A stretch of DNA of 63,944 nt, the filler included, from an uncultured bacterium (GTDB lineage Bacteria > CAYJOG01), in NCBI GenBank assembly GCA_964371695.1. It is 5 parts of 5 records of this genome, joined end to end, with 100 filler letters (N's around TTAATTAATTAA, not from the genome) between each part and the next. Parts side by side here need not be neighbours in the genome. Positions count along the whole stretch, not along the records: positions 27,179 to 40,642 come from CAYJOG010000031.1; 4 more parts are not named here. The stretch is one strand, 5' to 3'. Below the pieces are notes generated by a model. That model searched no databases, had not been told where the DNA came from, and was given only the letters and a program-made list of their open reading frames with translations. The position numbers and the translations under genes were made by a program. Below are positions 13,506 to 54,251 of this stretch, in pieces (position 1 is the first letter of the stretch; every line of letters begins with the position of its first letter).

Positions 13506-13605
13506 NNNNNNNNNNNNNNNNNNNNNNNNNNNNNNNNNNNNNNNNNNNNTTAATTAATTAANNNNNNNNNNNNNNNNNNNNNNNNNNNNNNNNNNNNNNN
13601 NNNNN
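13506..13605. other. Artificial contig linker (N-TTAATTAATTAA-N)
   Basis: All-frame stop linker flanked by Ns. Confidence 0.98.
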
Positions 13606-20211: not shown

Positions 20212-20725
20212 AGAATAAAAACCGCCGCATGCAGCGTCAAAGAAGGGCGCATAATTCTTTGGCAGGGTGTTCGTCAAAACTCTGCCGCCCCCCTTGTGCG
20301 GCTTTTCACTTTCCTTGATAACAGGCTTCCTCAAACCTTAAAATAGGCGGTCCAAAAACCCGCCGCATGGCGGGAGTGGCCCTCTTGGAGCGTTTTTATG
20401 GAACCCTTATATATCAACCGTTTGGCGGCATCCACGGCCAGAGGCCATGGATGGCCGTTCCCGCCGCCGCCCCAAGGCGGACGGCGCTTGTCAAAAATGG
20501 GCCCTGGGAGTAAAAAGCCATGACAATCATGTCCTTATTCGGGTTGGGCTGGGGCGTGCGGCGTTGTTTGCAAGGTTTCACGGATGAAACCGGCAAACCA
20601 GAAAACATAAACCGGGCAGGTCTTTTTACCCAGCGAATCAGTCATGCCCGTTGTGCGTAAACATAGCGAATAAGCTCCAGCCCCTTAATCCCAAGGGGGG
20701 TTCATTCTACGAAAGGGGGGGCGAC

Positions 20726-25243
<4,518 letters not shown>

Positions 25244-25292
25244 AAAGCCATGGTGACCAACAATTCCGCAATGGGGGGCCATCAAAATGCGC

Positions 25293-25567
25293 CATCGTTC
25301 CCTCCCCCCTTTGGGGGGAGGGTGGTCCGAAGGACCGGGCGAGGGGCAAAATATGAACAAAAAACCAGTTTTTGGTGGGGCAGGCATCCTGCCTGCCTGA
25401 AAAAAAGAACAAAAACTTCATTTGGTTTTTTTGCTTTTGAATACCCCGGCACTGTCGTGCCGCTAGACGCGCCCGGCAGCATCAATATGCTGCCGCAATC
25501 CCAAAAAACCTCCCGCATCCATTACCCGGCGCTGTGCGCCACCCTCTCCCCATAAAGGGGAGAGGGG
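25293..25567. repeat. Repeat mosaic between gltB and gltD (family C ends with internal shared modules)
   Basis: Family C at 25293-25346 and 25539-25567; GCAGGCATCCTGCCTGC and GCAGCATCAATATGCTGC hairpins. Confidence 0.8.
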
Positions 25568-25636
25568 ACAATGCCTCCTTATTCAACATCCAGCCAACAA
25601 TTTCCAAATTCCAACTTCAAAGAAGTGAGCCGCAAA

Positions 25637-27034
25637 ATGGGAAAAGTCACCGGATTCATCGAATACACCCGTCAGGAAGCCCCCCGCCGTGCCGTGGCGG
25701 AACGCCTGAAGGACTACCGCGAAATCGAGCAGCGTTTTGCCGAAGACGACCTGAAAACCCAGGCCGCCCGCTGCATGGACTGTGGCGTGCCCTTTTGCCA
25801 CACCGGCTGCCCGCTCGGCAACATCATTCCCGACTGGAACGATCTGGTGTATGCGGGTCGGTGGAAAGACGCGGTGGACCGCCTTCACAAAACCAACAAC
25901 TTCCCCGAAGTCACGGGCCGCGTGTGCCCCGCCCCCTGCGAAACCGAATGTATTCTGGGCATCACCGACCCACCCGTGGCCATCAAGCAGGTGGAGCGCG
26001 AAATCGCCGACCGGGGTTGGGACAACGGCTGGATCACCCCCCAGCCGCCCGAAGAACTCACCGGCAAAAAGGTGGCTGTGATTGGCGGCGGCCCGGCGGG
26101 TCTGGCGGGGGCGCAGCAGCTCACCCGCGCCGGCCACAGCGTGACGGTGTTCGAGCGCGACGACCGCGTGGGGGGCCTGCTCACCTACGGCATTCCCGAT
26201 TTCAAGATGGAGAAAAACCTCGTGGCCCGCCGGGTGGAGCAGATGGAGGCCGAGGGCACGGTGTTTCGCACCGGTGTGAACGTGGGCACGGACATCACCA
26301 TGGAGGAACTGCAAAAAAACTTCGACGCCGTGTTGCTGGCGGCGGGGGCGGGTTTTGCCCGGCCCCTTTCGGTGCCCGGCGCAGATCTGAAAGGCGTGGT
26401 GAAGGCCATGACCTTTTTGCCCCAGCAGAACAAACGTCTGGCGGGCGTGCTGGTGCCCAAGGATGAAAGCATCACCGCCACGGGCAAACGGGTGGCGATT
26501 CTGGGCGGCGGCGACACGGGGGCCGACTGCCTGGGCACCAGTCACCGCCAGGGCGCGGCGGCCATTTACCAGCTCGAAATTTTGCCCCAGCCCGAAAAAC
26601 TGAAATCCAGCACCAGCCACGAAGAAGGCGGCGAACGCCTGTGGGGGGTGCTCACCAAAAAGCTGGAGGGCGACGCCCAGGGCAATGTCACGCACCTGCA
26701 CGGCGTGAAGGTGACGTGGTCACTGGGGGCAGATGGCCGCCACGAAATGCAGGAGGTCCCCGGCAGCGAATTTGTGCTGGCGGTGGACTTGGTGATTCTG
26801 GCCATGGGTTTTCTGGGGCCAGAGCAACACGGCGTCATCGAACAGGCGGGCCTGAACACGGACCCCCGCAGCAACGTGGCGGTGGACGTCAACTTCATGA
26901 CCAGCGTGCCCGGCGTGTTTGCCGCAGGCGACATGAAACGCGGCGCGAGTCTGGTGGTTCACGCCATCTACGAAGGCCGCCAAGCCGCCAAAGCCATTGA
27001 CCAGTACCTGATGGGCAAGACCCGGCTGGAGTAA
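25637..27034 (+). CDS. gltD: Glutamate synthase small subunit
   Basis: MGKVTGF, RCMDCGVPFC, GRVCPAPCE, GGGPAG, GGGDTGADC, FAAGD. Confidence 0.97.
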   Translation: MGKVTGFIEYTRQEAPRRAVAERLKDYREIEQRFAEDDLKTQAARCMDCGVPFCHTGCPLGNIIPDWNDLVYAGRWKDAVDRLHKTNNFPEVTGRVCPAPCETECILGITDPPVAIKQVEREIADRGWDNGWITPQPPEELTGKKVAVIGGGPAGLAGAQQLTRAGHSVTVFERDDRVGGLLTYGIPDFKMEKNLVARRVEQMEAEGTVFRTGVNVGTDITMEELQKNFDAVLLAAGAGFARPLSVPGADLKGVVKAMTFLPQQNKRLAGVLVPKDESITATGKRVAILGGGDTGADCLGTSHRQGAAAIYQLEILPQPEKLKSSTSHEEGGERLWGVLTKKLEGDAQGNVTHLHGVKVTWSLGADGRHEMQEVPGSEFVLAVDLVILAMGFLGPEQHGVIEQAGLNTDPRSNVAVDVNFMTSVPGVFAAGDMKRGASLVVHAIYEGRQAAKAIDQYLMGKTRLE

Positions 27035-27078: not shown

Positions 27079-27178
27079 NNNNNNNNNNNNNNNNNNNNNN
27101 NNNNNNNNNNNNNNNNNNNNNNTTAATTAATTAANNNNNNNNNNNNNNNNNNNNNNNNNNNNNNNNNNNNNNNNNNNN
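27079..27178. other. Artificial contig linker
   Basis: N-TTAATTAATTAA-N. Confidence 0.98.
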
Positions 27179-28164
27179 TTAGCCACTGCGCCGGGCATGC
27201 CCCACACCACACTGCTGATCTCGTCCTGCACCATCACCTGCGCTCCCTTGGCCCGCAGGGCCTGCGCGCCTTTCAGGCCGTCGCAGCCCATGCCGGTGAG
27301 CACCATCGCCAATGCTTCTGGGCCATAGGTTTCTGCCATGGATTCAAAAAGCACGTCCACCGACGGGCGGCAGAAATTTACCGGATTCTCTTGATTGAGC
27401 AGCACGCGCACTGTTTGGCCCTGGCGTTTGACCACCATGTGTTCCGCGCCGGGGGCCAGCAGCACCATGCCGGGTTCCAGCACCATTTCGTGGCAGGCTA
27501 GGACGGGTTTCAGCGGTGTGCGTCGCCCCAGTTGCTCTGCCAGCGAGGCGGCAAATCCCCTGGGAATGTGTTGCACGATGAGCACCGGCGAACGGGGGGG
27601 CTGGGTGAAACTCGAAAAAAAAGTTTCCAGCGCCTGGGGGCCGCCGGACTCGTCGACCCCCCCCCCCACCCCGGGCCGGGGCGGGTTGGGGAATGTTGGG
27701 GGGCGGTGTTGGGGCAGGCGGGCGCGCCGGATGATGGCGTCGGCGAGCAGGCCAGCCAGATGCTCCAACGTTTTTTCGGGGCTGCCCTTGCTGGCGGGTT
27801 TGAGCAAAAAATCCTCCGCCCCCAGTCGCAGGGCTTCAAAGGTATACCGGGCGCTCCAGTGACTGGGGCCAGACAGCAGAATCACCCGCGTGGCAGGTCT
27901 CTCCTGCTTGATGATTTTCAAAACCTCCAGGCCGTCCAGGCCGGGCATCTGGCGGTCCAGCAGCACCACACCGGGGTGAAGTTCCCGAAAGATTTTGATT
28001 CCCTCTTCGCCGCAATCGGCTTCTCCCGCCAGCTTCACGCCGGGCACCTGTTGCAGAGCGGTTTTGAGGATGCGCCGGAAGGTGAGGCTGTCCTCAATGA
28101 TCAGCACCTGCTGATGGGTGACGGGGGAGGGCGCGGGGACGTTGGCAAGGGCGGTGGGGGGCAT
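27179..28164 (-). CDS. cheB: Chemotaxis methylesterase CheB (REC + methylesterase), 3'-truncated
   Basis: REC (IIEDS, LLDRQMP, FLLKP); VQHIP, RPSVDVLF, LTGMGCDG, VVWGMP; GxSTGG motif degenerate. Confidence 0.9.
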
Positions 28165-28179: not shown

Positions 28180-30352
28180 TTATAACCTGAAGCCCTCAAA
28201 CCAGGACTGAAGCGGTTTGGAGAGATCCAGCAACTGGCGGGCGCTCATCTGGGTGCTGGCTGCGCCCTCGGCGGTGTTGCGGGCAGCCTGATTCACCGCG
28301 CCGATGTTCTGCACAATGCTGGCCACGCCCCGGGCGGCCTCACCCACGTTGCGGGTGATGTCGTTGGTGACAGTGGTTTGCTCGTCCACGCTGATGGCGA
28401 TGGCGTTGGAGATGGCGTCAATCTCCTGGATGATGCTCTCGATATTGGCGATGGCGTCCACTGCGCTGCTGGTATCGCGCTGAATGTCCTCGATGCGCTG
28501 GGTGATGTNNNNNNNNNNCGGTGGCCCCGGCGGTCTGTTTGGCCAGTTCCTTCACCTCGTTGGCCACCACCGCGAAGCCCTTGCCCGCCTCGCCGGCGCG
28601 GGCGGCCTCGATGGTGGCGTTGAGCGCCAGCAGGTTGGTTTGCTGGGCGATGGCGGTGATGGTTTTGATGACCTTGCCGATTTCGTTGCTGCTGTTGCCC
28701 AGCTTGGCGATGGTGCCATTGGTGGCGCTGGCGGCCTGCACGGCGCGGGCGGCCACCTTGGCCGCTTCGGCAGCATTGCGGGCGATTTCCTTGATGGAGG
28801 CGGACATTTCTTCGGTGCCAGCGGCCACGGTTTCAGTGCTGCGGCCCACCTGTTCGCTGGCGGCGCTGGCGGCAGAGGACTGGGCGCTGGTTTCTTCTGC
28901 TGCGCCCGCCATGGTGTTGGAAATACTGTTCAGTTCCTCACTGCTCTGCATCAGGTTGTGGACAATCTGGCCGACCTTTTTCAGGTTGTCCCGCAGGTCA
29001 CCCAGAAAAAGCCCCAGGCCCTGGGCCATCTGCCCGGCGGCGTCGTCGCCGCTGATTTCAAGCGTGGTGGTGAGGTCGCCTGATTTGGCGGCGTTCACCA
29101 CATTCAGCATGGCGTCCACCTTTTGCTGAAGGGCCTCGCGGTCGCTACGCACCTGTTCCTGCATTTCCTTTTCGCGGGCTTTCAGGGCCAGGTCTTCGGT
29201 GATCACCCGCCACGTCACCATGGGGCCGATGTATTCCCCTTTGGCGTTGTAGGTGGGGTTGACCAGCAGGTTGAGCACTTCTTCCCCCAGCTTGATGTTC
29301 GCGTCGTGGGGCAGGTTTTTGGGGTTTTTGATGATGTTGCGCACGGCTTCGGGGTTTTTGTGAAAGATGTCAATGGAGCGGCCCAGCAGGTTTTCCACCT
29401 TGTCGGGCAGCAGGTGCTCCAGCGATTTCAGCGTGCGCTCGCTGGCGGGGTTCATGTAAATGAAATTGAAATCCAGGTCAGCCAAAAGCACATTGATGGG
29501 CATGTTCTGCATCATGTTTTTCAGCCGCGCCGCGTCGTCTTCGGCGCGCTTGAGTTGGGAGATTTCCTCCCAGTTCACAATCACGCCGCCATAGGTTCCG
29601 TCATCCAGCACGATGGCGTTCACGTTCAGGTCCAGCCACAACTGACCCACCCGAATCGCGGCCCGGTGGGGCAGGTTGTGAATGTCCTTGAGCAGGGCGC
29701 GGATGCGCTCTGCCGCAGGCCCCTTGTGAAACCGGTCAATGCTGCCGCCCTCAACCTGCGTGGCCTTCACGCCAAACTCGGCCATGAGGGTTTCTTCCAT
29801 CTTCGCCAGGGTTTCCCCTGCTTTTTTGTTGGCGAAAACGATGTTGCCCTTGCGGTCGGCCACAAACACGTTGGTGCCCAGGTTGTCCAGCGCGTTGCGC
29901 AGGCCGTCCAGGCGATCCAGCACAGTGGTGTGGCCGTTGCCATTGGATGAAGGCGCGGGGCGTTGCAGGGTGGCGGATGGTTTCATGGTGACGATTTCCT
30001 CCTTGAGGGGACTGACCAAAGCAGCGACTTCATCAATCAGGTTCGGGGCCACGCCCAGTTCCTGAAGGGTGTTCACCAGATGCCCCGCCACCGCGCCAAA
30101 GTGGCGCTCGGTGAGGCCCATGTTGTGGTGGGCGCTCGTCATGTCCTGGCCCTGATACACATCGGGCCCCCCCAGCGCGGTGGTGAGAAAATCCACCTGC
30201 TGCTGGCGCTGGTGGGCCATGTCAGTGTGTTTGAAAAATCCCTTGAGGGATTTGTCCCGCAGCACTTTCTGATAAAAAAGGTCCACGGCCGCCGCTATGG
30301 CGGCTGCACCGCCAAGGCGTTCATAGAGCGAGGTTCGGGTGGCGACAGACAT
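28180..30352 (-). CDS. Soluble chemoreceptor: group I truncated haemoglobin + 2 PAS + MCP signalling domain (apparent frameshift at the N-gap)
   Basis: [35 protein letters not shown]; two D.FHK.P PAS motifs; [37 protein letters not shown]; a 3-nt true gap at 28509-28518 would restore the frame. Confidence 0.9.
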
Positions 30353-30374
30353 TTATCCTCCTTGGATGGACGGC

Positions 30375-30803
30375 TCAGACTTGCAGGGTTTTCTGACTCA
30401 CGAGGGTTTCCAGATTCAGCCAGGGCACGACGCCCAGTTCGGTGTCAAACACACCATTGAAATAATCCGCCCCGCCAGTGCGCAAAGCGGGTGGCGTGGG
30501 GCTTAAGTGGTCTTCATGCCATTCATACACGTCGCCGGGCATGTCCACCGCCACTGCGGCCACACCGTGCTCCACAAAAGCCACCATGTAATAAGGGCCT
30601 TCTTCGAGGCGGCGGGGCTGGGCGCCCAGGCGCGGGGCCACTTCATAAGCGGTGATGATGTCTCCGCGCAGATTCAGAATGCCCATGACAGGCTCTGGGG
30701 CCAGGGGCACGGCGGTGGGGAACTGTGGCGGCAAAAATTCCCGCACCTTCTCCAGTTCAACGGCGAAATGATGCACGCCGATGCGTATGGTGGCGAGTCT
30801 CAC
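30375..30803 (-). CDS. cheW: CheW
   Basis: VPLAPEPVMGILNLRGDII; AVAVD. Confidence 0.85.
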   Translation of the reverse strand: MRLATIRIGVHHFAVELEKVREFLPPQFPTAVPLAPEPVMGILNLRGDIITAYEVAPRLGAQPRRLEEGPYYMVAFVEHGVAAVAVDMPGDVYEWHEDHLSPTPPALRTGGADYFNGVFDTELGVVPWLNLETLVSQKTLQV

Positions 30804-33427
30804 GGCGCGCTCTCTTCCAGCATCTGGCGAAAACGGGCTTCGAGGGTGTGGATGACTTCGTCCATGTTCAGCTTGAACAGATAGTTGTCAAAACCGGCCT
30901 CGATGCCCAGGCGCACAGTGTCTTCGTCCCGTTCGTTGGTGACGGCTATGACGGTCAGGTGATCACCGGGTTTTTCCTGCTGGCGGATCTGATTGACAAA
31001 AGCGATGCCGTCCATGTTGGGCATGTTCACGTCACTGATAACCAGATCAGGCTGCCCGGTCTCGAGTTTTTCCAGGCCGGTCACGCCGTCCTCTGCGAGG
31101 TCCACCGCATAGCCTTCTGACTCCAACCGTGTCTTGAGCAGGCTGCGGATGGTTTTGCTGTCATCCACCACCAGAATGCGTTTTTTCTGAACGTCTGAGA
31201 CAGGGGCGGCCTGTTTTTCCTTTTTTATTTTTTGGGGTGCTGCGTGGTCTGGAGTCTTGACTGAAACGGCTCTTTTGCCCCCCCATTCGCTGAGTTTTTC
31301 ACTGGACAGTAACCTCTCCGCCATGCCGTTGACCAGCACCTCGGTTTCCACGCCTTCCACCGGCGTGTCTGTGCTTTTTATCCTGGGCACGGCGACGGCG
31401 TCGAGAATTTCCTGCACACACAGGCCCATGGGGGGCGACTGGTTCATCACCACCACGGGCCACTGATCTGGGTTTACCACCGGAGCCAGGGGCAGCCAGT
31501 CCTGGGCCATCACCAGATTCATGAGTTGACCCCGGTAGGTCATCAGCCGCCTCCCCGCACCCTGCTGGATGGCGCTGGCTTCCACGTTTTCCAGACGCGC
31601 TACATCGCTCAGGCGCACCGCCAGTGTGACGCTTCCCTGCCGCAGCAGCAGCAGGGCTTCTGTTTCTTCGGGGATGGTTTCCGCTTCGTCCTTTTCGTTT
31701 TCAAGCGTTGTTTCTTCGTGCAGGTTGGCCCGTTTGGTCAGGCCCGCCGGGTCCAGAATCAGCGCCGCTTCGCCTCCCCCGCGAATGGTGCCGCCGGAAT
31801 AAACCCCCAGTGCGCCCAGTTCGCGGCTCAGGGGTTTCACCACGATTTCCTCGGTGTCCATCACCCGGTCCACCGCCACCACCAGCACCCGTCCGGCGGT
31901 GTCCAGCACCAAGCCATACATGCCGGGTGTGAGCAATTCCGCACCCCCCAGCAATCCTTGCAGTGTATAAAGCGGCAACAGGCGGCCCCGCAGCCGCAGC
32001 ATGTGGCCGCCGCTCACCTGACGCACCATGGACTGAAAATTGGCCTCGGTGAAATGCACCACTTCCTTCACCGAAGCCTGGGGAATGGCCATGACCTCGT
32101 TCCCGTTCTGAATCATCACCGCAGGCAGAATCGCCAGGGTGAGCGGCAGGGTGAGATGCGCCGAAAGGCCCTTTTCGGGAACCGACACCAGCGTGACCGT
32201 GCCCCCCAGCGATTCAATGCGCGCCTTCACCACGTCCATGCCCACGCCCCGGCCACTGATGTTGCTGGTTTGTTCGCGCGTGCTGAAGCCGGGGTGAAAA
32301 ATCAATTCCATCAACTGGTTGTGATCCATGCGGCTCAACTGGGCTTCACTCAACAGGTTTTGCCGCAGGGCCTGGGCCTTGAGGGTTTCCAGATGAATGC
32401 CGCTGCCGTCATCCTGCACCAGCAGATGCACCCGGCCGCCCTCGTGATAGGCCCGCAGACAAAGCGTGCCCCGCGCAGGCTTCCCTTTGGCTTCACGCTC
32501 GGCGGGCGACTCAATGCCGTGATCCAGCGCGTTGCGCACCAAGTGGGTGAGGGCGTCTTTCAGACCCTCCAGAAGGGTGCGGTCCAGCTCTGTTTCGCCG
32601 CCCTGAAAATCTACCCGGCATTCCTTGCCCAGAGCCAGGCACAGCTCCCTCACCTGTCTGGGAATGGTGGAAAACACCTGTGCAACAGGCTGCATGCGGG
32701 TTTTGAGGATGTTCTCCTGCAAGGCGGTGGTGATGGCGTTGAGCCGCTGGATGTAATCGTTGCTGAAACTGCCGGGCTGTGTCTGGCTCTGTTGCAGCAA
32801 CTGGTTGCGCGTGAGCACCAGTTCACCCACCAGATTCATGAGGTTGTCCAGCAAAGGGGTGCTCACACGAATGGTGTTATCCCGCGCCCCGGCTGCGCCA
32901 AAGCCCGTTTCGGCCAGAATGGGACCAGGGATTTCGGTGAGGCCCGGAATGGCCCCTGCAACCGGTTCTGGTTCAATCGTTTCAGAGCATGTTTCCGGTG
33001 TTGGTGTTTCTGCGGGGATTTGCGAAGGGGAGGGGAGGGCGCCCTGCCCCGCAAGGGTGTTGATGAGTCCTTCTACCTGGGCGGTAAAGGCTCCGTTTTC
33101 CCTGAGTTCCCCCAGCAGGCCCCCCAGCGTATCGTTGCAACGCAAAAGCACGCTGGCCAGACTGGTGGTGAGCATGCTGGCATCGTTGCGGATGACGCTG
33201 AGGGGTTCTTCCATCGCATGGCACAGCCGCTCAATGGCAGAAAAACCAAAAAATGCGGCATTGCCCTTGATGGTGTGTACCACACGGAAAAGGTTCTTGG
33301 CGGCGGTGTGATCGTGGGGGCTTCCCTCCAGCGTCATCAGGGCGGCGCTGATGGTGACCATGCCCTCGCGCACCTCGGCCAGGAACTCTTCACGGGCCTG
33401 TTGCAGTTCATCAATTTCGTTGGACAT
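30800..33427 (-). CDS. cheA: Hybrid CheA (HPt, dimerisation, HATPase, two CheW-like domains, REC)
   Basis: FRVVHTIKG, LMNLVGELVLTRNQ, HLVRNALDHGIE, DDGSG, SGRGVGMDVV, C-terminal REC (VVDDS, ISDVNMP). Confidence 0.95.
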   Translation of the reverse strand: MSNEIDELQQAREEFLAEVREGMVTISAALMTLEGSPHDHTAAKNLFRVVHTIKGNAAFFGFSAIERLCHAMEEPLSVIRNDASMLTTSLASVLLRCNDTLGGLLGELRENGAFTAQVEGLINTLAGQGALPSPSQIPAETPTPETCSETIEPEPVAGAIPGLTEIPGPILAETGFGAAGARDNTIRVSTPLLDNLMNLVGELVLTRNQLLQQSQTQPGSFSNDYIQRLNAITTALQENILKTRMQPVAQVFSTIPRQVRELCLALGKECRVDFQGGETELDRTLLEGLKDALTHLVRNALDHGIESPAEREAKGKPARGTLCLRAYHEGGRVHLLVQDDGSGIHLETLKAQALRQNLLSEAQLSRMDHNQLMELIFHPGFSTREQTSNISGRGVGMDVVKARIESLGGTVTLVSVPEKGLSAHLTLPLTLAILPAVMIQNGNEVMAIPQASVKEVVHFTEANFQSMVRQVSGGHMLRLRGRLLPLYTLQGLLGGAELLTPGMYGLVLDTAGRVLVVAVDRVMDTEEIVVKPLSRELGALGVYSGGTIRGGGEAALILDPAGLTKRANLHEETTLENEKDEAETIPEETEALLLLRQGSVTLAVRLSDVARLENVEASAIQQGAGRRLMTYRGQLMNLVMAQDWLPLAPVVNPDQWPVVVMNQSPPMGLCVQEILDAVAVPRIKSTDTPVEGVETEVLVNGMAERLLSSEKLSEWGGKRAVSVKTPDHAAPQKIKKEKQAAPVSDVQKKRILVVDDSKTIRSLLKTRLESEGYAVDLAEDGVTGLEKLETGQPDLVISDVNMPNMDGIAFVNQIRQQEKPGDHLTVIAVTNERDEDTVRLGIEAGFDNYLFKLNMDEVIHTLEARFRQMLEESAP

Positions 33428-33553: not shown

Positions 33554-34042
33554 TCACGAGGCGGTGGCGCAGGCCGACATGGGTTGCAGATGACTTCTCA
33601 CCACATCCCGGAAACTGCTCTGATTGGCCGCGTGAAAATAAAAAGTTTTGTTGAGTACGGCGTTGGCCCCGGCGGCCTTCACCTGATCCATCAAGACGGG
33701 ATCGTTTTCAGAAGTCAGCACCAGAATGGGTATCAGTCGGCCCGCTTGGGGAAACAGGGACGAAATCATGCTCAAGGCCGGGTCCAGCACATTGCCCCGC
33801 ACAATCTGCACCAGTTGAAATCCTCCAAGCGCAGCTGTGACCGGAGCAATGGGCAATCCCTTGCAACGCAGGCCCGTGAGCACCAGGTCCACCGGGCGAC
33901 CGGTCTGCTGTCGATGGCTGAGGGTCTGAAGGGCGTCTTGCAGGTTGTCCTGGGCAATCAGTTCTGGCGCGCCCAATGGTTTGAGCAGAAGCGAAAGGAT
34001 GCTCTTGACGACTTTTGAATCATCCACTGACAACACGGTCAT
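33554..34042 (-). CDS. Atypical single-domain response regulator (pseudo-receiver)
   Basis: VLSVDDS, DLVLTG (Gly at the phospho-Asp site), ILVLTS, GANAVLNK; TAATG-coupled to the upstream gene. Confidence 0.75.
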   Translation of the reverse strand: MTVLSVDDSKVVKSILSLLLKPLGAPELIAQDNLQDALQTLSHRQQTGRPVDLVLTGLRCKGLPIAPVTAALGGFQLVQIVRGNVLDPALSMISSLFPQAGRLIPILVLTSENDPVLMDQVKAAGANAVLNKTFYFHAANQSSFRDVVRSHLQPMSACATAS

Positions 34043-34311
34043 TAAGAGCCTCCTCGAGAAAGTGTCATTTCCCTGCCAAGGCTTGCCTTGAGCATGGCTT
34101 GGCAAAGGGCGTCGGCCTTGGGGCCATGCCACTGGCCCAGCAGGGCCTTGCGGGCGTTTTGCCGTTTGATGCCGTGGTGATCACACCAGCGGTTAAAGGA
34201 AGTTCCCTGGGCCACAAAACCACCCCGAACACGCTGATACAGGCTGATGGAGGGACCTTCTGAGCCTTGTCCATTGTCAGCGGAAGAGATGTCAAGGATG
34301 AAATAACTCAT
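34042..34311 (-). CDS. Small phage-type (Ner/Cro-like) DNA-binding protein
   Basis: LYQRVRGGFVAQGTSFNRWCDHHGIKRQNARKALLGQWHGPKA resembles HTH proteins I recall from Mu-like prophage immunity regions; divergent from an XRE gene. Confidence 0.6.
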   Translation of the reverse strand: MSYFILDISSADNGQGSEGPSISLYQRVRGGFVAQGTSFNRWCDHHGIKRQNARKALLGQWHGPKADALCQAMLKASLGREMTLSRGGS

Positions 34312-34644: not shown

Positions 34645-35160
34645 ATGCATTTATTCCTTTTGAATACCAACCCTCCAGAAGATATTGCATTGTCAAAGGC
34701 TGATACATGTCAGGACGGGGCAGTGGCGGAGCGTTTGCGCCGGGTGCGGGAGACACTGGGTTTGACGCAAGACGAGTTTTCCTCCCGCCTGCTGCTTTCC
34801 ATGACGGGTTACCAGAACTACGAAAACGGCAAGCGCAAGGCCCCCAAGGAGCTGGTGATCCAGATGTACCTCCAGTTTGGTGTTTCCCCCACCTGGCTTC
34901 TCACCGGTTTGCCGCCCGTGTTTGTCCAGCACACGACTGTGGACTCTTCTCTGAGTGAATTGCTTCATTTGAGTGGAGCGCCACAAGACGTGGTGGATTT
35001 TTCTCACAATGGCGACGGCAAAGAGGCCATCAAGGCGTGGCTGGATGACTTTTGGAAAACGGCCAGCGTGCGCGAAAAAGTGTGGTTGGAAGTGCAGTTT
35101 GAACAGAGTTTTCCGGCGTTCATGCAGTGGCTGTCCCGCAGGGGGCCCAGCGGAGGTTGA
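34645..35160 (+). CDS. XRE-family HTH regulator (phage-repressor-like; true start probably 34690 or 34723)
   Basis: ERLRRVRETLGLTQDEFS..YQNYENGKR..GVSPTWLLTG; Trp-rich C-terminal domain. Confidence 0.85.
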   Translation: MHLFLLNTNPPEDIALSKADTCQDGAVAERLRRVRETLGLTQDEFSSRLLLSMTGYQNYENGKRKAPKELVIQMYLQFGVSPTWLLTGLPPVFVQHTTVDSSLSELLHLSGAPQDVVDFSHNGDGKEAIKAWLDDFWKTASVREKVWLEVQFEQSFPAFMQWLSRRGPSGG

Positions 35161-40642: not shown

Positions 40643-40742
40643 NNNNNNNNNNNNNNNNNNNNNNNNNNNNNNNNNNNNNNNNNNNNTTAATTAATTAANN
40701 NNNNNNNNNNNNNNNNNNNNNNNNNNNNNNNNNNNNNNNNNN
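40643..40742. other. Artificial contig linker
   Basis: N-TTAATTAATTAA-N. Confidence 0.98.
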
Positions 40743-54151: not shown

Positions 54152-54251
54152 NNNNNNNNNNNNNNNNNNNNNNNNNNNNNNNNNNNNNNNNNNNNTTAAT
54201 TAATTAANNNNNNNNNNNNNNNNNNNNNNNNNNNNNNNNNNNNNNNNNNNN
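54152..54251. other. Artificial contig linker
   Basis: N-TTAATTAATTAA-N. Confidence 0.98.

What the first reader, a model, noticed from the sequence alone, without database searches (positions are those of the whole stretch)
28180..30352. Chemoreceptor fusing a 2/2 truncated haemoglobin to two Aer2-like PAS domains
Seen: the first ~120 aa carry the group I trHb signature (LYERLGG, B9-B10 FY, CD1 Phe, E7 Gln, LGGP..Y.G, proximal AH). Two PAS domains follow, each with D.FHK.P and a terminal Trp, then an MCP domain with no TM helices. Known: HemAT-type receptors use a 3/3 sensor globin. In Pseudomonas Aer2 the PAS His ligates heme and the Trp stabilises O2. Group I trHbs are mostly stand-alone NO dioxygenases. 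Inference: a soluble receptor with up to three hemes that integrates O2 and NO. I do not recognise this architecture as characterised.
Basis: partly seen in the sequence, partly recalled or inferred. Interest (0 to 1): 0.85.

Follow-up and report, generated by a model that had tools for sequence, protein, structure and literature searches.

The report
Truncated-haemoglobin-tagged Aer2-type oxygen chemoreceptor
This is a soluble bacterial chemotaxis receptor with three likely haem gas-sensor domains (a truncated haemoglobin plus two Aer2-type PAS domains); the design was noticed by computer in 2018 and is common in environmental bacteria, but I found no experimental test of it.

Summary
Window 28180..30352 (minus strand) encodes one 721-aa soluble receptor. 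It has a group I truncated haemoglobin (Pfam Bac_globin, E 4.9e-22), a disordered linker, two Aer2-type PAS domains that each keep the haem His and the O2-stabilising Trp, a HAMP-like unit and an MCP signalling domain. It sits in a cheY-like/cheA/cheW/receptor/cheB operon. Per-run contigs from four runs bridge the globin-PAS junction without a mismatch, so the join is not chimeric.

The architecture is not new in print. Sharma et al. 2018 described PAS+Bac_globin+MCPsignal receptors in silico (7 in 8,075 genomes). A 2026 aerotaxis review still calls them predictions.

I found the family to be much larger:
- 63 receptor fusions among 100 hits of one search.
- 47 of the 120 closest relatives of the receptor body carry the globin.
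- The same globin clade is also fused to the receptor C-terminus, to CheW and to CheA, or encoded as a separate neighbouring gene.

A perfect Shine-Dalgarno site plus ATG at Met123 marks the start of the ancestral globin-less receptor and may still give a second isoform.

Most likely this is an O2-sensing Aer2-like receptor with the globin as a tethered extra haem input. Function is untested. New member of a known, uncharacterised kind.

The parts
28180..30352 (-). Whole receptor gene (721 aa with stop), interrupted in the window by a 10-N scaffold gap
   Evidence: ORFs; N run; intact 721-aa database copy P0006
30357..30363 (-). Shine-Dalgarno AAGGAGG, 4 nt before the annotated ATG (30350-30352)
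29993..30331 (-). Group I truncated haemoglobin domain (residues 8-120)
   Evidence: Pfam PF01152 E 4.9e-22; 3aq5 E 2e-32; AF2 pLDDT about 90
30272..30274 (-). Tyr27, aligned with Tyr25 (B10 by recall) of the solved Tetrahymena trHb
   Evidence: alignment; 73 of 73 fused globin copies keep it; codon
30209..30211 (-). Gln48 (E7 position)
   Evidence: aligned with Q46 of 3aq5; the PDB variant 3aq8 differs exactly there; Q in 38 and L in 34 of 73 copies
30197..30199 (-). Gln52 (E11 position)
   Evidence: aligned with Q50 of 3aq5; variant 3aq9 differs there; Q in 59 and M in 13 of 73 copies
30128..30130 (-). His75, proximal haem ligand position (F8)
   Evidence: aligned with the His in ..TEAHKG.. 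of 3aq5; 73 of 73 copies
29924..29992 (-). Low-complexity linker (residues 121-143), predicted disordered
   Evidence: AF2 pLDDT below 50 for residues 126-142; linkers of relatives vary in length and composition
29998..30004 (-). Internal Shine-Dalgarno AAGGAGG inside the last globin helix codons (K117-E118-E119)
   Evidence: 9 copies of this heptamer in the whole window on both strands
29984..29986 (-). In-frame ATG (Met123), 11 nt after the internal SD. Start of the ancestral globin-less receptor and a possible second initiation site
   Evidence: residues 123-165 are co-linear with the N-termini of globin-less relatives; split form in L010
29558..29923 (-). PAS1 (residues 144-265), Aer2-type; His209 at 29726-29728, Trp261 at 29570-29572
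   Evidence: Pfam PAS_9/PAS; 36% identical to PAS2, E 3e-22; AF2
29198..29536 (-). PAS2 (residues 273-385), Aer2-type; His331 at 29360-29362, Trp381 at 29210-29212
   Evidence: 6ceq 4.6e-15, 3vol 1.3e-14, 4hi4 4.9e-13 with His and Trp aligned
28988..29197 (-). Long helix plus one HAMP-like helix-loop-helix (residues 386-455)
   Evidence: AF2 helix 385-423, low-confidence loop 430-447, helix from 439; Pfam HAMP only E 0.052
28183..28987 (-). MCP kinase-control (signalling) module, residues 456-721, ending ..SWFEGFRL
   Evidence: MCPsignal E 3.1e-25; tip [12 protein letters not shown] at residue 576
28509..28518 (.). 10-N gap inside contig C31, in the part of the MCP domain shared by many receptors
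   Evidence: summed contig depth rises to 86-451 in the four runs just upstream, at 28584-28648; P0006 has two residues (ED) there
30375..30803 (-). cheW, stop 22 nt before the receptor start
   Evidence: Pfam CheW E 7.2e-19
30800..33427 (-). cheA with Hpt, dimerisation, ATPase, two CheW-like stretches and a C-terminal receiver
33554..34132 (-). Divergent CheY-like receiver ORF (probable start MTVLSVDDS..)
   Evidence: weak Response_reg hit, 26.9 bits against cut-off 30.2; sequence
27179..28164 (-). cheB (receiver + methylesterase), cut by the end of contig C31
   Evidence: Pfam; contig map

Best explanation
The gene encodes a soluble, cytoplasmic Aer2-type aerotaxis receptor with an added group I truncated haemoglobin (trHb).

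Shown here:
- The domain order is trHb, a disordered tether of about 25 residues, PAS1, PAS2, a helix plus HAMP-like unit, and the MCP kinase-control module.
- All haem-pocket residues are kept in the globin (Tyr27, Gln48, Gln52, His75). The Aer2 haem His and O2-stabilising Trp are kept in both PAS domains.
- The gene lies in a cheY-like/cheA/cheW/receptor/cheB operon of a genome that also has flagellar export and at least 13 MCP-type genes.
- The protein arose by joining an upstream trHb gene to a complete Aer2-like receptor gene. The receptor's own ribosome-binding site and start codon (Met123) survive inside the fused frame.

Inferred:
- O2 binds the ferrous haem of PAS2, the domain next to the HAMP unit. 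As in V. cholerae and V. vulnificus Aer2, this drives the HAMP and kinase-control module to change CheA activity. PAS1 acts as an upstream modulator.
- The trHb is a third haem input. It is probably of much higher O2 affinity, as Tyr/Gln/Gln group I globins usually are, and is also reactive with NO.
- Because it hangs on a flexible tether, the trHb acts by ligand-dependent contact with the PAS/HAMP end of the receptor dimer or with neighbouring array proteins. It does not signal through a rigid helix as in HemAT. Its role is to tune or widen the receptor's working range in the low-oxygen sediment the DNA came from.
- Initiation at both ATGs would give globin-bearing and globin-less receptors from one gene.
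For: Domains and residues.

Conservation: in 73 trHb copies fused to chemotaxis proteins, His75 and Tyr27 are kept in 73 of 73, Phe40 in 72 of 73, and Gly14, Gly15 and Gly62 in 73 of 73.

Association with Aer2-type PAS: 53 of 63 trHb-MCP fusions carry at least one D-x-F-H-K-x-P motif. Of the 120 best relatives of residues 140-721, all have 1-6 such motifs and 47 carry an N-terminal trHb.

Operon. The same CheA-CheW-[trHb-PAS-MCP]-(REC)-CheB order recurs in L009, L013, L015, L020 and L051 (L014 holds the same genes with the receptor upstream of cheA) from different phyla by record title, and in Corallococcus (PMC6194562, section 8).

Tether: AF2 pLDDT is below 50 for residues 126-142, with the flanking domains near 90. 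Linkers of relatives are variable and low-complexity.

Fusion origin:
- AAGGAGG lies 11 nt before ATG-Met123.
- Residues 123-165 are co-linear with the N-termini of globin-less relatives. For example..PSGNGH..SLDFLRASL..VQANIF in P0326 matches ..[21 protein letters not shown] in the window.
- L010 shows the split state, with a trHb gene whose 3' end holds AGAGGAGG 7 nt before the receptor's ATG in another frame.

The modulatory role of N-terminal domains in Aer2 receptors, and PAS-to-di-HAMP signalling: passages of PMC10107281.

The junction is real: contigs of four runs bridge it with 0 differences.

Motility background: 13 MCPsignal matches, 6 CheR matches and FlhA in the genome.
Against: No experiment exists for any member that I could find, and haem binding is not shown.

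73 of the 120 closest receptor relatives lack the globin, so it is dispensable for core signalling.

The disordered tether and the changing attachment point argue against classical through-helix allostery. They leave the way the globin would influence the receptor undefined.

Characterised group I trHbs are mostly NO dioxygenases rather than sensors (my recall of the field; titles and abstracts).

The region after PAS2 looks like one HAMP, not the di-HAMP of the defined Aer2 core.

The operon lacks cheR and cheD between the receptor and cheB, and the contig ends inside cheB.

The internal start is inferred from sequence only.
Confidence: 0.55

Rival explanations
1. The trHb is an enzyme, not a sensor. 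It is a tethered NO dioxygenase (or peroxidase-like scavenger) held in the chemosensory array. There it keeps NO or oxidants away from the ferrous PAS haems, which NO would otherwise block for long periods. It may also mark NO exposure by becoming ferric.
For: The domain is a typical group I trHb with the Tyr/Gln/Gln distal set, and its best matches are solved trHbN proteins. The same globin works from any attachment point: receptor N-terminus, receptor C-terminus, CheW, CheA, or a separate gene in the operon. That fits a function needing only proximity. Vibrio Aer2 receptors do not respond to NO, so a separate NO-handling module would add something.
Against: No reductase partner is encoded in the part of the operon that is held. 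A freely diffusing gas is hard to exclude locally. My own estimate gives a scavenging length of tens of nm even at mM globin, and this is not from a tool. Among hits that are not tandem-globin proteins, fusion is almost exclusive to signalling proteins of one pathway: 71 of 72 such hits. That looks more like signal input than detoxification.
Confidence: 0.2
2. The globin is a passenger. A frameshift fused two neighbouring operon genes, and the fused form has no property beyond co-expression. The globin acts as it did when separate, or does nothing for the receptor.
For: The internal SD and ATG are retained. Split and fused forms interleave on the globin tree: 40 N-terminal fusions need 17 changes, at least 8 of them forced by well-supported branches. 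There is a split form in L010. Decayed globin remnants occur in some relatives (P0316, P0322).
Against: The fusion recurs in several phyla and in four topologies. The haem-pocket residues are kept in 73 of 73 copies. The C-terminal fusions form nearly one clade of 27 (2 changes), which indicates long retention. Even the separate genes sit inside che operons (L008, L010).
Confidence: 0.12
3. Assembly artefact: a globin gene and a PAS-MCP gene from different organisms were joined in a metagenome bin.
For: The genome is a fragmented bin (672 contigs). The gene holds a 10-N gap. Depth is only 3-5.
Against: The gap lies in the MCP domain, far from the junction. Contigs assembled separately from four runs span 29499-30300, 29678-30460, 29857-30077 and 29872-30033 with 0 differences. 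The identical 721-aa protein is on 9 contigs in the protein collection. Dozens of relatives have the same join, and some share the linker motif SNGNGH.
Confidence: 0.03

Closest known systems
PAS + Bac_globin + MCPsignal receptors described in silico (Corallococcus coralloides Cc_4972; Sharma, Parales and Singer 2018, PMC6194562)
   Same: Same three Pfam families in one soluble MCP. Same kind of cluster (CheA-CheW-MCP-...-CheB). Same proposal of oxygen sensing.
   Different: That paper never uses the word 'truncated' (0 occurrences). In the parts I read it does not assign the PAS domains to the Aer2 haem type. It counted 7 proteins. It does not report C-terminal, CheW or CheA fusions, or the internal start. 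I read the abstract, passages and section 8, but not its supplements or figures, so the domain order of Cc_4972 is unknown to me.
Aer2 receptors (P. aeruginosa Aer2/McpB; V. cholerae dual-PAS Aer2; V. vulnificus tri-PAS Aer2)
   Same: Soluble MCP. PAS-haem domains with the E-eta His and I-beta Trp. N-terminal domains that vary and modulate the last PAS. Encoded inside a che operon.
   Different: Carries an N-terminal truncated haemoglobin. Apparently has one HAMP rather than a di-HAMP. Scores 227 bits against the 1200-bit cut-off of the NCBIfam Vibrio Aer2 model. The cluster order lacks cheR and cheD between the receptor and cheB.
HemAT and other globin-coupled sensors (S family, 3/3 fold)
   Same: A globin joined to an MCP signalling domain for aerotaxis.
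   Different: The globin here is 2/2 group I. Protoglobin scores below its cut-off. It is joined by a disordered tether to a receptor that already has its own sensors, rather than being the sole sensor on a continuous helix.
Stand-alone group I truncated haemoglobins (Tetrahymena trHb 3aq5, cyanobacterial GlbN, M. tuberculosis HbN)
   Same: E-values of 2e-32 to 7e-25. The same distal Tyr/Gln/Gln and proximal His positions.
   Different: Those are single-domain proteins. A 2020 review lists bacterial chimeric T globins only for groups O and P, and T1 chimeras only in eukaryotes (passage of PMC7475203).

Membership tests
Group I truncated haemoglobin (trHbN, Pfam PF01152) | Match to Bac_globin above the curated cut-off, and not to Protoglobin | tested here: met
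   78.8 bits against cut-off 21; Protoglobin 16.1 bits against cut-off 25
Group I truncated haemoglobin (trHbN, Pfam PF01152) | Closer to solved group I than to group II or III globins | tested here: met
   Group 1 entries score 2e-32 to 8e-21; HbO (1ngk) scores 1.7e-4
Group I truncated haemoglobin (trHbN, Pfam PF01152) | Proximal His, B10 Tyr, E7/E11 Gln and the two Gly-Gly hinges | tested here: met
   H75, Y27, Q48, Q52, G14-G15 and G61-G62 align with 3aq5. The helix names are recalled, but the PDB point variants fall on the same columns. Conservation.
Group I truncated haemoglobin (trHbN, Pfam PF01152) | 2-on-2 helical fold | not tested
   AF2 gives confident helices but I ran no fold search. 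The fold is implied by 58% identity to a solved trHb.
Group I truncated haemoglobin (trHbN, Pfam PF01152) | Binds haem b | not testable with these tools
   Needs expression and spectroscopy
Aer2-type PAS-haem chemoreceptor | PAS domain related to solved Aer2 PAS-haem domains, with the haem-ligating His and the O2-stabilising Trp | tested here: met
   PAS2 against 6ceq, 3vol and 4hi4; PAS1 against PAS2, E 3e-22; H209/W261 and H331/W381
Aer2-type PAS-haem chemoreceptor | Soluble, with no membrane helices | tested here: met
   Hydrophobicity scan; AF2 topology
Aer2-type PAS-haem chemoreceptor | Core of last PAS + di-HAMP + kinase-control module (PMC10107281) | tested here: inconclusive
   Only one helix-loop-helix after a long helix, and Pfam HAMP at E 0.052. 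The segment is 85 aa, similar in length to a di-HAMP.
Aer2-type PAS-haem chemoreceptor | C-terminal tether pentapeptide x-[HFYW]-x2-[HFYW] (PMC7184735) | tested here: inconclusive
   WFEGF fits the pattern but is followed by two more residues, RL
Aer2-type PAS-haem chemoreceptor | 36H heptad class and F7-class CheA/CheB/CheR | not tested
   No class models are held. The module length of 266 aa is compatible with 36H.
Aer2-type PAS-haem chemoreceptor | NCBIfam equivalog of Vibrio Aer2 (NF041847) | tested here: not met
   227 bits against cut-off 1200
Globin-coupled sensor (HemAT type) | N-terminal 3/3 sensor globin (Protoglobin family) | tested here: not met
   Protoglobin E 0.012, below its cut-off
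PAS + Bac_globin + MCPsignal receptors (Sharma et al. 2018) | All three Pfam families in one protein, inside a CheA-CheW-MCP-CheB cluster | tested here: met
   compared

The most novel reading that the evidence does not exclude
The truncated haemoglobin is a portable, array-tethered gas module rather than a conventional sensor domain.

One clade of group I trHb is hung by disordered linkers on four different points of chemosensory arrays:
- the receptor N-terminus;
- the receptor C-terminus, where the CheR/CheB-tethering pentapeptide normally sits;
- CheW, in either order;
- CheA, between Hpt and the dimerisation domain, in the place of P2.

It can also be left as a separate gene in the operon. 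It would therefore act in trans on the array, with ligand-dependent docking or local gas chemistry. That would make it a 2/2-globin counterpart of globin-coupled sensors that works by tethering.

The retained internal start would let one gene set the ratio of globin-bearing to globin-less receptors.
Probability: 0.3. Interest if true: 0.8.

Novelty: new member of a known kind. Interest (0 to 1): 0.5.

Why it matters
Aer2 receptors are the best-studied PAS-haem oxygen sensors of chemotaxis, and why their N-terminal regions differ so much is an open question (PMC10107281). This family adds a second, chemically different haem protein to the same receptor, and it does so many times over in sediment and soil bacteria.

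If the globin is a real input, it would be the first signalling role for a bacterial group I truncated haemoglobin. It would also be a globin-coupled sensor that does not use the 3/3 sensor globin.

The fused, split, C-terminal, CheW and CheA versions are natural experiments. They show which contacts matter.

For this window alone the gain is modest. It is one more member of a kind already noted in print and already met three times in this scan.

Tried and rejected
- **Complex prediction.** I predicted a complex of the globin (residues 1-125) with PAS1-PAS2 (140-395), with three haems riding along. The result was no answer (score 0.00, mark 0.32). This is no evidence either way.
- **RNA.** No RNA holder was listed for the gene, so nothing can be said about expression or the internal start.
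- **Relatives by kinship.** All 40 genomes offered were 'same domain' only, so the organism could not be placed.
- **Rfam and tRNA scans of the window.** Both found nothing.
- **Earlier notes on this genome.** None. A sequence look-up found no look-alike windows.
- **Hade et al. 2017 (IUBMB Life, multidomain trHbs).** The paper is not held. I know it only through citing papers, so a mention of trHb-MCP chimeras there cannot be excluded.
- **Literature searches that found no experimental study or further description:**
  - 'truncated hemoglobin' + 'methyl-accepting chemotaxis' + PAS: 6 papers, none on such a fusion in the listing or the passages I read.
  - Aer2 with the trHb terms: 81 papers held at least 2 of the 5 terms; none of the 20 listed held Aer2, and 61 were not listed.
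  - 'truncated hemoglobin' + chemoreceptor + fused: 0 papers.
  - Bac_globin + chemoreceptor: 1 paper, the 2018 one.
  - Papers quoting the 2018 title: 4, none experimental.
- **A wasted search.** One search with min_terms 1 was uninformative.
- **gltB/gltD as neighbours.** Rejected, because they lie on another contig.
Full report
**1. What is in the sequence**

On the minus strand a frame opens at ATG 30350-30352 and runs without a stop to a run of ten N at 28509-28518. The same gene continues from 28506 to the stop at 28180-28182. The ORF table shows two pieces (644 and 93 aa) only because ten N shift the frame.

The protein collection holds the window's own product as one 721-aa protein (P0006). 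It was seen on 9 contigs and reads ..AGAT-ED-ITQR.. across the gap.

The window is a chain of contigs of a fragmented genome: 672 contigs, 3.43 Mb, 83% complete. Contig C31 starts at window 27179. The 44N-12nt-44N blocks are contig joins, and the 10-N runs are gaps inside contigs. Two consequences follow:
- gltB/gltD at 20651-27034 are on another contig and are not shown to be neighbours.
- cheB is cut by the contig end.

**2. Domains**

Pfam results:

| Family | Residues | Score |
|---|---|---|
| Bac_globin | 8-120 | E 4.9e-22, 78.8 bits, cut-off 21 |
| PAS families | 150-270 and 275-385 | several, above cut-off |
| HAMP | 415-454 | E 0.052 (weak) |
| MCPsignal | from 527 | E 3.1e-25 |
| Protoglobin | - | 16.1 bits, below cut-off 25 |

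Against solved structures, the globin is closest to group 1 truncated haemoglobins: Tetrahymena 3aq5 at E 2e-32, then cyanobacterial GlbN, Chlamydomonas THB1 and M. tuberculosis HbN. Group II HbO scores only about 1e-4.

In that alignment Tyr27, Gln48, Gln52 and His75 fall on Tyr25, Gln46, Gln50 and His73 of 3aq5. The deposited point variants 3aq8 and 3aq9 differ from 3aq5 exactly at the two Gln columns. This supports my recalled labels B10, E7, E11 and F8.

PAS2 matches the solved PAS-haem domains of V. cholerae Aer2 (6ceq, 4.6e-15) and P. aeruginosa Aer2 (3vol, 1.3e-14; 4hi4, 4.9e-13). The ..D-I-F-H-K-N-P.. His and the late Trp are aligned. PAS1 is 36% identical to PAS2 (E 3e-22) with the same His and Trp.

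NCBIfam's best model is the Vibrio Aer2 equivalog, at 227 bits, far below its 1200-bit cut-off.

AlphaFold2 with 33 relatives gives the following:
- confident globin and PAS domains (pLDDT about 85-95);
- a disordered stretch at residues 126-142 (pLDDT below 50);
- a long helix at 385-423;
- a low-confidence loop at 430-447;
- then the MCP helices.

No hydrophobic segment suggests a membrane helix.

**3. Surroundings**

The gene sits in a tight minus-strand operon. The order is:
- a divergent CheY-like receiver (33554-34132);
- cheA with a C-terminal receiver (30800-33427);
- cheW (30375-30803);
- the receptor;
- cheB (from 28164, cut at 27179).

Gaps between genes are 22 nt or less. The genome also holds 13 MCPsignal matches, 6 CheR matches and the flagellar export gene flhA. 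So this is one of several chemosensory systems of a flagellated organism.

The DNA is held by four runs of one sediment-metagenome study.

**4. Is the join real?**

Only per-run contigs were available. Contigs from four runs cover 29499-30300, 29678-30460, 29857-30077 and 29872-30033 with no differences. No joints or loose ends occur there.

These runs may include the source sample, so they are not fully independent. They are, however, separate assemblies. The summed contig depth rises from about 5 or less to between 86 and 451 in the four runs at 28584-28648, the MCP tip region shared by many receptors. That explains the nearby scaffold gap.

**5. How common is it?**

*Globin profile search.* A profile of three globin domains, searched among longer proteins, gave 100 hits. 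By my sorting they are:
- 28 tandem multi-globin proteins;
- 63 MCP fusions (36 with the globin at the N-terminus, 27 at the C-terminus);
- 4 CheW fusions;
- 4 CheA fusions;
- 1 globin with an unassigned tail.

Of the 63 MCP fusions, 53 carry at least one Aer2-type D-x-F-H-K-x-P motif: 33 of 36 N-type and 20 of 27 C-type.

*Receptor body search.* Searching with residues 140-721, 47 of the 120 best hits (the window's own included) have an N-terminal trHb and 73 do not. All 120 have 1-6 Aer2-type motifs. Three hits instead carry a classical Globin (PF00042) domain.

*Exhaustive search.* A search of 1.84 billion representatives with the globin alone found 5,102 homologues at E up to 1e-3. I scanned 17 proteins with Pfam: 15 longer hits of that search and two hits (P0078, P0096). 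The result was six MCPs, two globin-PAS pieces, two CheW fusions (one in each order), one glycosidase-like fusion and six globins with no second family. None had a histidine kinase or cyclase output.

*Species-representative genomes.* In the 80 best loci:
- 11 hold N-terminal receptor fusions. One (L034) has a frame break, one (L063) is cut by a contig end, and one (L039) has its MCP part in another ORF.
- 4 hold C-terminal fusions.
- 1 holds CheW-trHb (L024).
- 1 holds a CheA with the globin between Hpt and the dimerisation domain (L055).
- 2 hold a separate trHb gene directly beside cheW or the receptor (L008, L010).
- 4 more have MCP or che genes within 8 kb.
- 57 have none that my queries detected.

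By record title the carriers include Verrucomicrobiota, Planctomycetota, Gemmatimonadales, Bryobacterales, Vicinamibacterales, Nitrospinales, Alcanivoracaceae and Alphaproteobacteria.

**6. Conservation and history**

In 73 fused globin copies, Tyr27 and His75 are invariant, Phe40 is kept in 72, and Gly14, Gly15 and Gly62 are invariant. Gln52 is Q in 59 and M in 13. Gln48 is Q in 38 and L in 34.

I built a tree of 141 globin domains on 121 columns, using the quick method. Only the first unit of every sixth tandem protein was used, so 106 of 127 tandem proteins were left out. The tree is poorly resolved but gives three results:
- The 27 C-terminal fusions need only 2 changes.
- The 40 N-terminal fusions need 17 changes, at least 8 of them forced by well-supported branches.
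- The N-terminal fusions interleave with single-domain globins.

Fusion and fission have therefore happened repeatedly.

The window shows how. AAGGAGG, the same heptamer that precedes the annotated start by 4 nt, lies inside codons 117-119. It is followed 11 nt later by the only in-frame ATG of the linker, Met123. The heptamer occurs 9 times on both strands of the window. By my arithmetic, the chance of one falling in the 11 usable positions before that ATG is about 8e-4.

From Met123 onward the sequence is co-linear with the complete N-termini of globin-less relatives. In L010 the two genes are still separate. There the receptor's SD and ATG lie inside the 3' end of the trHb gene in another frame.

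Of the 11 N-type genes checked, including the window, 4 have an SD-like site of 5 or more bases before an ATG in the linker. Many linkers of metagenomic relatives hold a Met followed by a conserved ..SNGRFK...

**7. Most likely mechanism**

*Shown.* This is an Aer2-like receptor body with intact haem-pocket residues in two PAS domains, inside a che operon. An intact-looking trHb is attached by a flexible tether.

*Inferred by analogy with the Vibrio receptors* (passages of PMC10107281). O2 binding at the last PAS haem drives the HAMP and kinase-control module. The upstream PAS modulates this.

*Inferred.* The trHb is a further haem input that tunes the response. The tether, the four attachment points and the split forms argue that it acts by contact or proximity, not through a continuous helix as in HemAT.

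A Tyr/Gln/Gln group I globin would be expected (recall) to bind O2 far more tightly than Aer2 PAS domains. That would extend sensing into the nanomolar range useful in sediments. This is speculation.

The main rival is that the globin is an NO dioxygenase guarding the PAS haems.

**8. Comparison with what is known**

[quoted passage not shown] A 2026 aerotaxis review still treats it as a prediction and never mentions truncated haemoglobins (PMC13401364, passages). A 2020 globin review lists bacterial chimeric T globins only for groups O and P (PMC7475203, passage). Hade et al. 2017 could not be read.

Relative to defined Aer2 receptors, this protein meets the PAS-haem and solubility features. 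It does not show a clear di-HAMP, a terminal pentapeptide, or the F7 gene order of PMC7184735. It is not a HemAT-type globin-coupled sensor.

**9. Verdict**

The feature is real and was correctly read. It belongs to a published but untested kind, which this scan has met before (e1-3085868, e1-2218079, e1-3570467). Three things are more than the printed description, as far as my searches show:
- the breadth of the family;
- the four fusion topologies;
- the retained internal start.

Interest 0.5.

Noticed in passing
window 13506-13605, 27079-27178, 40643-40742, 54152-54251: Blocks of 44 N + 12 bases + 44 N are joins between separate contigs of a 672-contig genome. Genes on either side (for example gltB/gltD at 20651-27034 and the che operon) are not shown to be adjacent.
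   Followed up: partly
window 28584-28648: Summed contig depth rises from about 5 or less to between 86 and 451 in the four runs over the MCP tip region. Many organisms' receptors share this stretch, which probably caused the 10-N scaffold gap at 28509-28518.
   Followed up: partly
L055:1173-4142 and proteins P0100-P0103: CheA kinases carry a truncated haemoglobin between the Hpt domain and the dimerisation domain, in the place where P2 usually sits.
   Followed up: partly
L024:3069-4229; proteins P0076, P0094, P0097, P0098, P0210, P0238: CheW-truncated haemoglobin fusions occur in both domain orders.
   Followed up: partly
proteins P0269, P0330, P0352: Close relatives of the receptor body carry a classical Globin (PF00042) domain instead of Bac_globin. 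Aer2-like receptors have therefore recruited globins of two different folds.
   Followed up: no
proteins P0009-P0035, P0105-P0212: Tandem multi-unit truncated haemoglobins with 2 to 14 units dominate the top of both searches. At least two come from eukaryotes by their source names: a green alga (Astrephomene, P0012) and a EukProt transcriptome (P0010).
   Followed up: no
proteins P0052, P0060, P0063, P0065, P0074 (about 240 aa): Short proteins consist of only the tip-to-C-terminal half of an MCP signalling domain followed by a truncated haemoglobin. Some sit on long contigs (up to 157 kb), so they may not be truncated calls.
   Followed up: no
proteins P0309, P0316, P0322: Some 'globin-less' relatives start inside a globin or carry a globin remnant with a deletion. 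This indicates decay of the module in some lineages.
   Followed up: no
G000:C10:4867-5250: The same genome has a second, stand-alone truncated haemoglobin ORF (146 aa, 29% identical to the receptor's globin).
   Followed up: no
window 33554-34132 (-) and 34645-35160 (+): The operon begins with a divergent receiver whose Pfam score is below the cut-off and which holds an insertion. A divergently oriented HTH_19 regulator lies across a lower-GC (0.48-0.50) intergenic region.
   Followed up: no
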